From: an uncultured delta proteobacterium
Lineage (GTDB): Bacteria; Desulfobacterota; Desulfobaccia; Desulfobaccales; 0-14-0-80-60-11
Length of the DNA: 64,000 nucleotides
Assembly: GCA_963812015.1 (NCBI GenBank)
Contig: CAWETI010000003.1
Coordinates: 320,001-384,000, forward strand
Direction: 5' to 3'
Below, in pieces: positions 6,507 to 7,847 of this stretch (its first letter is position 1; the number at the start of each line of letters is the position of its first letter). The notes beneath the pieces are model-generated. The model saw nothing but the letters and a program-made list of their open reading frames with translations, had not been told where the DNA came from and searched no databases. The position numbers and the translations under genes were made by a program.

Positions 6507-6586
6507 GGAGTTAAAATGAATTTGGGAGAGGGGGCCAGGGGCGGATGGCCCCTGCCCCCTCTCCCAAACCCTTGTATGTTAAAGGG

Positions 6587-6776
6587 AACCGGTACATAGT
6601 TTGGTCATTAAAGAACCAGGCCATCAGGAGCAGTACTGCTCCTGATGGCGGCGTGGCAGGCCGTCCTAACCCTTGGTCCTTCAAGACCGCGGTGAGAGCG
6701 TGGCCGCCACGTCGCCCTGGCATTAACCCGAACAGTCGCCCGGGCTTTGAAGCCCGTATCTTGCAAGGACGGGAGG
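6587..6776 (+). ncRNA. Predicted bridge RNA of IS110 copy 1
   Basis: Target-binding loop with CCTAACCCT (6665-6673) and GAGAG (6694-6698); donor-binding loop with ACAGTCGC (6732-6739) and TGCAAG (6762-6767); each guide pair flanks an inner hairpin. RNA ends are approximate. Confidence 0.85.
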
Positions 6777-6788
6777 CCAAGGCTTTTT

Positions 6789-7742
6789 ATGCACCCTGAA
6801 TCCGTATTTGTCGGCATTGACGTCTCTAAGGACCAGTTAGACATCGCCATCCGGCCAGGAGAGGTCCGGTTCCGGGAGTCCAACAACGACTCCGGTATCC
6901 AGGCCCTCGTTGTCCGACTTTTGTCCCTTAAGCCCCAGCTCATCCTCCTGGAAGCCACCGGTGGCTATGAGATCCTGGCCGCCGCCGCCTTGCGGCAGGC
7001 TGACCTGCCGGCCCACATTATTAACCCTCGTCAGGTGCGAGACTTTGCCCGGTCCTCCGGCAGATTGGCCAAAACCGATAAGATCGACGCCGCGGTTCTG
7101 GCTCATTTTGCCGAGGCGCTGAAACCGTCCCTCCGACCCTGGCCAGATGAGCATCAACAGGAATTGGCCGCCCTCATGAGCCGGCGCCGGCAACTGGTGG
7201 AGATGCTGGTCATGGAGAAAAATCGCCTATCCATGACTTTCTCCCCACGGGTCCGCAGAAGCCTGCAAACCAACCTCCAATCCCTTAAAGAACAACTTAA
7301 GGAGTTGGAGCAAGATTTGGACGACTTCATCCGTCAAAGCCCCATCTGGCTGGAGAAGGATCAACTCCTCCAGAGCGTCCCGGGAGTCGGCCCCTTAACC
7401 TCCCAAAGCCTGTTAGCCTGGGTGCCGGAGTTAGGCACCTTAAATCGCAAGAAGATCGCCGCCCTGGTGGGGTTGGCCCCCTTTAACCGCGATAGCGGTC
7501 AGATGCGGGGCAAGCGCACCGTTTGGGGTGGCCGGGCCCGGGTGCGGCCTCCCTTGTATATGGCTACGTTGGCCGCCTGCCGGGTCAATCCGGCCATCCG
7601 TGCCTTCTATCTCCGGTTGCTGGCAATGGGTAAGAGCAAGAAATTGGCTCTTACCGCCTGTATGCGTAAACTGTTAACCATCCTTAATGCCATACTTAAA
7701 CAACAGCAACCCTGGTGCCCCCTTGCACCAGTTAACCCTTGA
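6789..7742 (+). CDS. IS110 DEDD recombinase (transposase), 317 aa
   Basis: GIDVSK, LEATG and KTDKIDA (DEDD); SVPGVG and RDSG (catalytic Ser); RBS GGGAGG at 6771-6776 favours ATG 6789. Confidence 0.96.
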
Positions 7743-7847
7743 CATCTAACACAGTCGCTCTCCCCCAACCCCTTACAAGGGGTGGGAGAATAACTTGAGA
7801 GAGAATAGGAAGTAATGTATCCCCCTACGCAATGAGCCTCGTTCTTT

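What the first reader, a model, noticed from the sequence alone, without database searches (positions are those of the whole stretch)
6571..7759. IS110 element with a fully readable bridge RNA whose guides match its targets and its own ends
Seen: both copies are flanked by CT. Empty sites reconstruct as CCAAACC-CT-CTCCC (copy 1) and CCTGACC-CT-CTCCC (copy 2). The circle junction is ACAGTCG-CT-TGTAT. The left non-coding end has two stem-internal loop-hairpin modules. Loop 1 holds CCTAACCCT (6665-6673; 8/9 identical to each target's left arm plus core) and GAGAG (6694-6698; reverse complement of CT-CTC). Loop 2 holds ACAGTCGC (6732-6739; the junction left arm) and TGCAAG (6762-6767; pairs with CTTGTA with one G-T wobble). 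Known: this is the IS621 bridge-RNA architecture for RNA-guided recombination. Inference: an intact, programmable bridge recombinase with its own target and donor specificity, and a candidate genome-engineering orthologue.
Basis: partly seen in the sequence, partly recalled or inferred. Interest (0 to 1): 0.9.

Follow-up and report, generated by a model that had tools for sequence, protein, structure and literature searches.

The report
Intact IS110 element with bridge RNA
This is a working-looking copy of a known kind of jumping gene (IS110/IS621 type) that uses its own small RNA to pick its landing site, so it is a new example of a known system and not a new mechanism.

Summary
Window 6571-7759 is a 1,185-bp IS110-group element flanked by the core CT. 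The genome has eight full copies, five of them identical, plus a 58-bp remnant. Its 216-nt left end folds into a 5' hairpin and two stem/internal-loop/hairpin modules.

- **Guides:** the loop strands sit exactly as in IS621. LTG 6665-6673 and RTG 6694-6698 match the target. LDG 6732-6739 and the split RDG 6758-6767, with the same G·T wobble as IS621, match the element's own ends.
- **Recombinase:** the 317-aa protein aligns end to end with IS621 and ISCro4 and keeps D11/E55/D97/D100 and S236-G237.
- **Covariation:** in 22 insertions of relatives (48-61% identity) the guides track their own flanks: LTG 119/140 matches against 79.6 permuted, RTG 81/110 against 38.4. Helices show compensatory changes.
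- **Promoter:** joining the ends would create TTGACA-17-TATGTT in 19 of 19 elements.
- **Targets:** these are REP-like repeats, and no perfect 12-mer site is left empty.

RNA expression, DNA circles and recombination activity remain untested; the only hint is one 172-nt contig from a run guessed to be RNA.

This is a new member of a known kind, and its interest was overstated.

The parts
6564..6570 (+). Left target arm (LT) of copy 1, CCAAACC
   Evidence: 6 of 7 bases match the LTG
6571..6572 (+). Core dinucleotide CT, left junction
   Evidence: present at both ends of all 8 copies
6573..7757 (+). Body of the IS110-group element (1,185 bp between the two CT cores)
   Evidence: 8 full copies, 99.7-100% identical
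6575..6580 (+). -10 hexamer TATGTT of the promoter that would form across the circle junction
   Evidence: script; same position in 19 of 19 elements with both ends
6620..6649 (+). 5' stem-loop, 13 bp
   Evidence: a hairpin of at least 9 bp at this place in 19 of 21 relatives
6650..6713 (+). Target-binding module: basal stem 6650-6663/6701-6713, inner hairpin 6674-6678/6685-6689
   Evidence: helix 1 95% paired with 6 compensatory pairs; helix 2 90% paired
6665..6673 (+). Left target guide (LTG), CCUAACCCU
6694..6698 (+). Right target guide (RTG), GAGAG; pairs with CT-CTC. The extended form 6691-6698 pairs 7 of 8
6699..6700 (+). Handshake guide of the target module, CG; complementary to donor positions 7 and 6 (G, C)
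   Evidence: sequence read against the definition in PMC11208158; C in 21 of 21 relatives
6714..6783 (+). Donor-binding module: stems 6714-6721/6776-6783 and 6727-6730/6770-6773, inner hairpin 6741-6746/6751-6756
6732..6739 (+). Left donor guide (LDG), ACAGUCGC; same as the right end ACAGTCG plus C of the core
   Evidence: 8 nt as in IS621
6758..6767 (+). Right donor guide (RDG), AU[CUU]GCAAG; pairs discontiguously with CT-TGTAT, with G6763 opposite T as a wobble
   Evidence: same layout as IS621 A157-U158/G161/C162-G165
6768..6769 (+). Handshake guide of the donor module; G6768 is complementary to target position 7 (C)
   Evidence: U opposite A in the Leptofilum elements
6789..7742 (+). Recombinase gene, 317 aa (D11, E55, D97, D100; S236-G237); Shine-Dalgarno-like GGGAGG at 6771-6776 inside the donor module
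7739..7744 (+). -35 hexamer TTGACA of the junction promoter; overlaps the stop codon
7751..7757 (+). Left donor arm (LD), ACAGTCG, the last bases of the element
7758..7759 (+). Core dinucleotide CT, right junction
7760..7764 (+). Right target arm (RT), CTCCC
51521..52709 (+). Second copy in the window, with both CT cores; 3 base differences (at the positions that match 6603, 6909, 6913), none in a guide
7865..7876 (-). Unoccupied one-mismatch target (CCTGACC-CT-CTC) in a REP-like repeat about 100 bp from copy 1

Best explanation
This is an intact, recently active insertion sequence of the IS110 group. It moves by RNA-guided recombination of the IS621 type.

Shown from sequence:
- The element encodes a DEDD/Ser recombinase.
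- Upstream of that gene, its left end encodes a structured RNA of roughly 170-200 nt.
- The first internal loop carries two strands that match the left arm (bottom strand) and right arm (top strand) of the insertion site, both including the core CT.
- The second internal loop carries two strands that match the element's own right and left ends in the same way.

Inferred by homology with IS621:
- The element excises as a circle.
- Joining its ends creates a sigma-70 promoter (TTGACA-17-TATGTT) that drives the RNA.
- A recombinase tetramer holds the RNA, which pairs with the circle junction and with a REP-like genomic site (consensus CCTAACC-CT-CTC).
- Serine-mediated strand exchange at CT inserts the element.
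- Handshake bases C6699 and G6768 favour the exchanged state.
For: Protein:
- Pfam PF01548 (2.8e-25) and PF02371 (2.4e-18).
- End-to-end alignment to ISCro4 (1e-37) and IS621 (8.8e-37), with the catalytic residues aligned.

RNA:
- MFE -94.5 kcal/mol, z = -3.67.
- On 21 sequences, 83.9% of cells are paired, against 33-45% when partners are slid. There are 13 pairs with double changes against 6.0±1.1 in shuffles (0 of 500).
- A covariance model built from these sequences matches directly upstream of the gene in 77 of 80 loci from several phyla.

Target guides:
- All 9 left junctions in this genome match the LTG at 8-9 of 9 positions.
- Among relatives, LTG-LT gives 119/140 matches against 79.6±5.3 permuted, and RTG-RT 81/110 against 38.4±6.7. 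No permutation of 20,000 reached either value. The result also holds with one row per distinct guide.

Donor guides:
- LDG positions 1-7 equal LD in this element and in 8 of 8 multi-copy sets compared. The three different LD sequences (ACAGTCG, ACAGTTG, ACACCTG) are each matched by their LDG.
- RD changes TGTGT and AGTAT are met by matching RDG changes.

Other:
- The junction promoter is present in 19 of 19 elements. No promoter-like site is found in the linear context.
- Five of 8 copies are identical and all 8 reading frames are open.
- Occupancy falls with mismatches: 1 of 1 exact 12-mer site, 6 of 35 one-mismatch sites, 1 of 315 two-mismatch sites.
- 16 sites with a perfect LT+core but a wrong RT are empty.
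Against: - No RNA, circle junction or empty allele was seen. The contigs laid show no joint.
- The only expression hint is one 172-nt contig in a run whose RNA label is a guess.
- The contiguous RTG is short (5 nt). Copy c7 matches only 1 of the first 3 RT bases.
- The LDG does not pair with the second core base, and the RDG bulge is 3 nt where the relatives and IS621 have 2. All 8 copies carry this bulge.
- Several insertions of relatives match their LTG at only 4-5 of 7 positions (L030, L026 as aligned, L047, L043).
- Relatives are kin, so the permutation figures overstate independence.
- Rfam has no family that matches.
Confidence: 0.88

Rival explanations
1. The left-end structure is only a 5' leader that regulates the recombinase. 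Site choice is made by the protein, and the loop/flank matches are coincidence or shared ancestry.
For: The Shine-Dalgarno-like GGGAGG (6771-6776) lies inside the donor module, so the fold could affect translation. No RNA-protein or RNA-DNA contact was measured here.
Against: Loop strands change together with the flanks in relatives, on both arms. Donor guides change with the element ends. A protein-only reader would not need this. The layout copies IS621 base for base, including the wobble.
Confidence: 0.03
2. The element has the right architecture but is no longer mobile. The copies are relics spread by duplication, or are an assembly artefact.
For: No circle or empty-site joint was found in the contigs laid. 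One copy is reduced to 58 bp.
Against: The eight copies have eight different flanks, each with CT on both sides. Five of 8 are identical and the rest differ by at most 3 bases, with no change in any guide. All reading frames are open. In run X1 the interior depth is 52-76 against 7-9 in the flanks (depth is only a rough guide).
Confidence: 0.07
3. It belongs to the IS1111 group, with a seekRNA-type guide RNA encoded downstream of the gene.
For: It has the same two Pfam domains.
Against: Only 15 nt follow the stop codon (7743-7757), while 216 nt precede the gene and carry both modules.
Confidence: 0.01

Closest known systems
IS621 of Escherichia coli (bridge RNA system; PDB 8wt6; PMC11208160 and PMC11208158, passages read)
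   Same: - Recombinase domains and the D/E/D/D plus Ser-Gly catalytic residues.
- RNA encoded in the left end: a 5' stem-loop, then a target-binding module, then a donor-binding module.
- A 9-nt LTG and an 8-nt LDG that stops after the first core base.
- A split RDG with a G·T wobble at donor position 12.
- CT core, handshake bases and a junction promoter.
   Different: - The recombinase is a distant homologue of IS621: full-length match at E = 8.8e-37, identity not computed here.
- The RTG is 5 nt (perhaps 8) against 4 in IS621.
- The RDG bulge is 3 nt against 2.
- The target is a REP-like repeat of an uncultured sediment bacterium. Its order matches a record titled Desulfobaccales.
- Activity is untested.
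ISCro4 transposase (PDB 9t56)
   Same: Best match among solved structures: E = 1e-37 over residues 2-309.
   Different: Only the protein was compared. Its RNA was not available to me.
ISPpu9 / ISPpu10 of Pseudomonas putida (PMC12288879 seen in the search listing; 10.64898/2026.03.19.712850 seen as abstract)
   Same: They are IS110-family elements that insert into repeated extragenic palindromic sequences. For ISPpu10, a hairpin next to the target is reported as an extra determinant.
   Different: Here the hairpin lies on the right-arm side in one repeat type and on the left-arm side in the other. No uniform structural requirement is evident, and none was tested.

Membership tests
IS110-group bridge recombinase system (IS621 type) | RuvC-like DEDD domain with the four acidic residues | tested here: met
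   PF01548 at 2.8e-25. D11, E55, D97 and D100 align with IS621 D11, E60, D102 and D105.
IS110-group bridge recombinase system (IS621 type) | Tnp domain with a catalytic serine followed by glycine | tested here: met
   PF02371 at 2.4e-18. S236-G237 align with S241-G242.
IS110-group bridge recombinase system (IS621 type) | Long non-coding left end upstream of the gene and a short right end | tested here: met
   The left end is 216 nt (6573-6788) and the right end 15 nt (7743-7757).
IS110-group bridge recombinase system (IS621 type) | RNA with a 5' stem-loop and two stem/internal-loop/hairpin modules | tested here: met
   Searches give the fold. One search gives the covariation. One search finds the 5' hairpin in 19 of 21 sequences. 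In one search the model matches 77 of 80 loci.
IS110-group bridge recombinase system (IS621 type) | First loop: LTG has the sense of LT+core, and RTG is complementary to core+RT | tested here: met
   Searches cover this genome. Searches show covariation across 20-22 insertions of relatives.
IS110-group bridge recombinase system (IS621 type) | Second loop: LDG and RDG match the element's own right and left ends | tested here: met
   The LDG matches 8 of 8 bases. The RDG covers CT-TGTAT with one wobble. Covariation is seen in multi-copy sets.
IS110-group bridge recombinase system (IS621 type) | CT core at both junctions and no longer duplication | tested here: met
   All 8 copies, compared with empty repeat sites.
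IS110-group bridge recombinase system (IS621 type) | Sigma-70 promoter rebuilt across the RE-LE junction | tested here: met
   In silico only: TTGACA-17-TATGTT, with 19 of 19 elements scoring 9-11 of 12. None is found in the linear context.
IS110-group bridge recombinase system (IS621 type) | Handshake bases 3' of RTG and RDG that pair with donor and target position 7 after exchange | tested here: met
   C6699 lies opposite donor G7 and G6768 opposite target C7. In Leptofilum, U lies opposite target A.
IS110-group bridge recombinase system (IS621 type) | The RNA is made and bound by the recombinase, and it directs recombination | not testable with these tools
   No RNA run is on record. One 172-nt contig covers 6615-6786 in a run guessed to be RNA.
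IS110-group bridge recombinase system (IS621 type) | Circular intermediate | tested here: inconclusive
   No joint was found in the contigs of 4 runs. Contigs drop rare forms.
Rfam RNA family for bridge RNA | Match to a curated covariance model | tested here: not met
   Among 4,227 families, only chance-level hits to microRNA and sRNA models were found, all far below their gathering scores. I do not know whether such a family exists in release 15.

The most novel reading that the evidence does not exclude
In this bacterial order the family diversifies by point changes in LTG and RTG. These changes track sequence variants and registers of one host REP-like repeat. For example, L041 reads CCTGACC, L040 reads CCCGACC, and L020 uses the next CT 6 bp downstream. 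In this genome the element has filled every perfectly matched site and is now entering single-mismatch sites: CCTGACC 3 of 8 occupied, CCAAACC 1 of 14 occupied. That would give a natural map of which guide positions tolerate mismatches.
Probability: 0.5. Interest if true: 0.4.

Novelty: new member of a known kind. Interest (0 to 1): 0.3.

Why it matters
- It adds a compact (317-aa) orthologue from an uncultured sediment bacterium to the bridge recombinase family. All four guides, both handshake bases and the junction promoter can be read directly from the sequence.
- The eight near-identical copies, together with a full census of free sites, give a natural readout of specificity. Both arms are needed, and single mismatches at LTG positions 1, 3 and 4 are tolerated.
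- The relatives show natural retargeting within one repeat family.
- None of this changes the known mechanism. It is useful as an annotated example and as one more candidate for engineering screens.

Tried and rejected
- **Rfam:** no bridge-RNA family matched. The best hits are chance matches of microRNA models to the REP hairpin at 6513-6578.
- **Sequencing runs:** no RNA holder is listed.
- **Laid contigs:** no circle or excision joint was found. The one 'letters between' record (X1, 6542 to 7758) is another free repeat site of the same genome (C2 around 489509). It is not an empty allele of this locus.
- **Link between the targeted repeats and a repeat-associated Y1 transposase:** the 58-bp remnant abuts a truncated gene whose 167-aa paralogue hits Pfam Y1_Tnp below the cut-off (21 bits against 23). 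No copy of the targeted repeats lies within about 1.5 kb of the three paralogues, so I dropped this idea.
- **Durrant 2024 supplements:** a 28-aa and a 30-nt stretch of this element were not found in the 6 files held as text. bioRxiv supplements are closed, so I cannot say whether the orthologue was in later screens.
- **Earlier notes of this scan:** nothing relevant.
- **Left end of the CAWHDJ set:** it could not be fixed because of indels, so only the right end of that set was used.

Full report
**What is there.**
- Window 6571-7759 is bounded by CT at 6571-6572 and 7758-7759. It holds one ORF, 6789-7742 (317 aa), preceded by 216 non-coding bases and followed by 15.
- It sits between a 558-aa ORF that ends at 6506 and a 134-aa ORF that starts at 7962, on the same strand as both. 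I read these two from memory as the large subunit and the B12-binding subunit of a methylmalonyl-CoA-mutase-like enzyme. No search was run on them.
- The window is G000:C3:320001-384000. The genome holds eight full copies plus a 58-bp left-end remnant.
- Five copies are identical. c2 (window 51521-52709) differs at three bases, and c7 and c8 at one base each. No difference lies in a guide. All eight reading frames are open.

**Protein.**
- Pfam finds DEDD_Tnp_IS110 (2.8e-25) and Transposase_20 (2.4e-18).
- Among solved structures, the protein aligns over residues 2-309 with ISCro4 (9t56, 1e-37) and IS621 (8wt6, 8.8e-37).
- D11, E55, D97, D100 and S236-G237 align with the IS621 residues D11, E60, D102, D105 and S241-G242. 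PMC11208158 names those residues as catalytic (passages).

**RNA anatomy.**
- The left end folds at -94.5 kcal/mol. Shuffles give -76.8±4.8, so z = -3.67, and 0 of 200 shuffles fold as well.
- The fold has three parts:
  - a 13-bp hairpin, 6620-6649;
  - a first module, with stem 6650-6663/6701-6713, an internal loop, and hairpin 6674-6678/6685-6689;
  - a second module, with stems 6714-6721/6776-6783 and 6727-6730/6770-6773, an internal loop, and hairpin 6741-6746/6751-6756.
- This is the order described for the family: a 5' stem-loop, then the target-binding loop, then the donor-binding loop (PMC11208160, passages).
- On an alignment with 20 relatives, the two modules give 83.9% paired cells, against 33-45% when partners are slid. 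There are 13 pairs with changes on both sides, against 6.0±1.1 in shuffles (0 of 500). The outer stem of the second module is the weakest helix, at 58% paired.
- A hairpin of at least 9 bp precedes the first module in 19 of 21 sequences. The two exceptions are L036 and L033, whose genes are broken.

**Guides against this genome's sites.** The eight copies have these flanks:

| Left arm | Copies |
|---|---|
| CCTAACC | c3, c4, c7 |
| CCTGACC | c2, c5, c8 |
| CCAAACC | c1 |
| ACTAACC | c6 |

- The remnant also has CCTAACC.
- On the right side, six copies have CTC..., c3 has CTT... and c7 has CCT....
- So the LTG CCUAACCCU (6665-6673) matches 9/9 at four junctions and 8/9 at five.
- GAGAG (6694-6698) is the complement of CT-CTC. 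Read as 6691-6698, it pairs with 7 of 8 bases of CTCTCCCC.
- ACAGUCGC (6732-6739) equals the right end ACAGTCG plus the first core base. That is 8 nt, as for IS621 LDG A123-C130.
- The RDG reads A6758 U6759, a 3-nt bulge, then G6763 C A A G6767.
  - It covers CT-TGTAT with G6763 opposite T.
  - This copies the IS621 layout: A157-U158, two flipped U, the G161·dT12 wobble, then C162-G165.
- C6699 is complementary to donor position 7 (G). G6768 is complementary to target position 7 (C). These are the handshake positions defined.

**Census of sites.**
- The 12-mer CCTAACC-CT-CTC has no free exact copy in the genome. Free copies number 29 at one mismatch (13 CCAAACC, 5 CCTGACC) and 314 at two mismatches.
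- Occupied sites number 1 exact, 6 at one mismatch and 1 at two mismatches. Occupancy is therefore 1/1, 6/35 and 1/315.
- The 9-mer LT+core occurs 28 times. Eight are the guide itself inside the copies, 4 are at left junctions, and 16 lie elsewhere. All 16 have a non-matching right arm and all are empty. Both arms are therefore needed.
- The targets belong to two REP-like repeat types. About 26 and 19 free cores of the two types remain at up to 2 mismatches.

**Relatives.**
- In the same order, 20 of 83 genomes, counting G000, have a match at E ≤ 1e-40. The relatives are 48-61% identical.
- Their left ends align cleanly across the scaffold. In 21 of 22 relative insertions the right end reads TTGAC(N)...ACAGTCG-CT, and in 20 of 22 the left end begins CT-TGTAT; L033 shows neither end and L025's left end lies beyond its contig.
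- The guides differ between relatives and follow their own flanks:
  - L041: LTG CCTGACCCT at CCTGACC.
  - L040: LTG CCCGACCCT at CCCGACC.
  - L019: LTG GCGCACCCT at GCGCACC, with RTG ATGTAG at CT-ACAT.
  - L020: LTG CCTCTCCCT, using the next CT 6 bp further along the same repeat.
  - L037: RTG GGGTGAG at CT-CACCC.
- Over the non-core positions:

| Pairing | Observed matches | Permuted | Permutations reaching it |
|---|---|---|---|
| LTG-LT, 20 insertions | 119/140 | 79.6±5.3 | 0 of 20,000 |
| RTG-RT, 22 insertions | 81/110 | 38.4±6.7 | 0 of 20,000 |
| One row per distinct LTG | 71/84 | 47.4 | 0 of 20,000 |
| One row per distinct RTG | 51/70 | 24.3 | 0 of 20,000 |

- Some insertions match their LTG poorly: L030 at 4/7; L026 at 4/7 as aligned (10/10 if shifted by one base); and L047, L022, L043, L036 and L037 at 5/7.
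- Kinship inflates these statistics.

**Donor side in a wider set.**
- A scan of one genome per species found 492 relatives. The best 80 are 47-61% identical. By their record titles they come from Desulfobaccales and 'delta proteobacterium' MAGs, Chloroflexi, Planctomycetes, cyanobacteria, Actinomycetota and others.
- A covariance model of the two modules matches directly upstream of the gene in 77 of the 80 loci. It misses L064, L079 and L109.
- In genomes with several copies, I set the ends by comparing copies, independently of the guides.
- LD ACAGTCG goes with LDG ACAGTCGC, LD ACAGTTG with ACAGTTGC (ACAGTTGT in Leptofilum), and LD ACACCTG with ACACCTGC.
- RD TGTGT (Rubrobacteraceae MAG) goes with RDG AC..GCAAG in place of AU..GCAAG. 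RD AGTAT (Leptofilum) goes with ..GCUAG.
- In Leptofilum the target position 7 is A, and the base after the RDG is U.

**Promoter.**
- The linear region 6400-7950 has no sigma-70-like site.
- Joining the right and left ends in a script gives TTGACA (7739-7744), a 17-nt spacer and TATGTT (6575-6580). The same geometry is found in 19 of 19 elements with both ends, scoring 9-11 of 12.
- This is the promoter rebuilt on circle formation that is described for the family.

**Expression and mobility data.**
- No run on record as RNA holds the stretch.
- Contigs of four runs were laid on 6300-8000. X1 and X2 carry the element with this genome's flanks. No circle or excision joint appears.
- In X20, a sediment run whose RNA label is a guess, one 172-nt contig lies wholly on 6615-6786 with two differences. 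That span runs from the 5' hairpin to the end of the second module. Nothing from X20 covers the gene. This is a weak hint of a discrete RNA and no more.

**Comparison and novelty.**
- Every sequence-level feature that defines the IS621-type system was tested and met. Expression, circles and recombination could not be tested.
- The system and its rules are in print (PMC11208160 and PMC11208158, passages read). REP-targeting IS110 elements are also in print (ISPpu9 from the search listing, ISPpu10 from the abstract).
- This exact element was not found in the six supplementary files of PMC11208160 that are held as text. Close relatives, 89-97% identical and labelled only 'transposase', are common on short metagenome contigs.
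- It is a new member of a known kind. The added value is the full reading of the guides, the site census and the natural retargeting among relatives.

**Verdict.** My confidence that this is a functional bridge-RNA element is 0.88, and I score its interest at 0.3.

Noticed in passing
G000:C2:1263943-1264000 (L009 1501-1558) and L009 1611-1808: A ninth insertion sits at a perfect CCTAACC-CT site and is cut off after 58 bp. It abuts a 66-aa C-terminal remnant of a gene whose 167-aa paralogue (L130 1459-1962, minus strand) hits Pfam Y1_Tnp (IS200-like) just below the cut-off. One deletion seems to have removed most of the IS and the start of that gene.
   Followed up: partly
window 6521-6570, 7760-7790, 7845-7889; genome-wide list: There are two REP-like repeat families. 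One is CCCCCTCACCCT(A/G)ACC-CT-CTCCCCC followed by a hairpin. The other is a GC-rich hairpin followed by CTCTCCCAAACC-CT-CTCCCCCAACCCC. About 26 and 19 free cores remain. Three of these repeats crowd the gap between the two ORFs around copy 1.
   Followed up: partly
window 6506-7962: Copy 1 lies between a 558-aa ORF ending at 6506 and a 134-aa ORF starting at 7962, on the same strand as both. I read these from memory as methylmalonyl-CoA-mutase large-subunit-like and B12-binding-subunit-like genes; no search was run. Read-through from the upstream gene could transcribe the bridge RNA and the recombinase, and the insertion may affect expression of the downstream gene.
   Followed up: no
window 6776-6789: In this element only, the outer stem of the donor module is followed by TTTTTA just before the ATG. 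This resembles a terminator tail. The X20 contig ends at 6786. Relatives lack the T run.
   Followed up: no
L081-L088 (Candidatus Leptofilum MAG, named record): Six of seven copies have TT at the left junction where CT is expected, while the right junction has CT. This suggests insertion into sites with a non-canonical first core base.
   Followed up: no
L056-L058 (named 'delta proteobacterium' MAG): A relative inserts at the 3' foot of a long palindromic repeat (GGACCGGCATCTTGCCGG...CCGGCAAGATGCCGGTC-CT). Its LTG matches 8 of 9 bases. This is another repeat family used as a landing site.
   Followed up: partly
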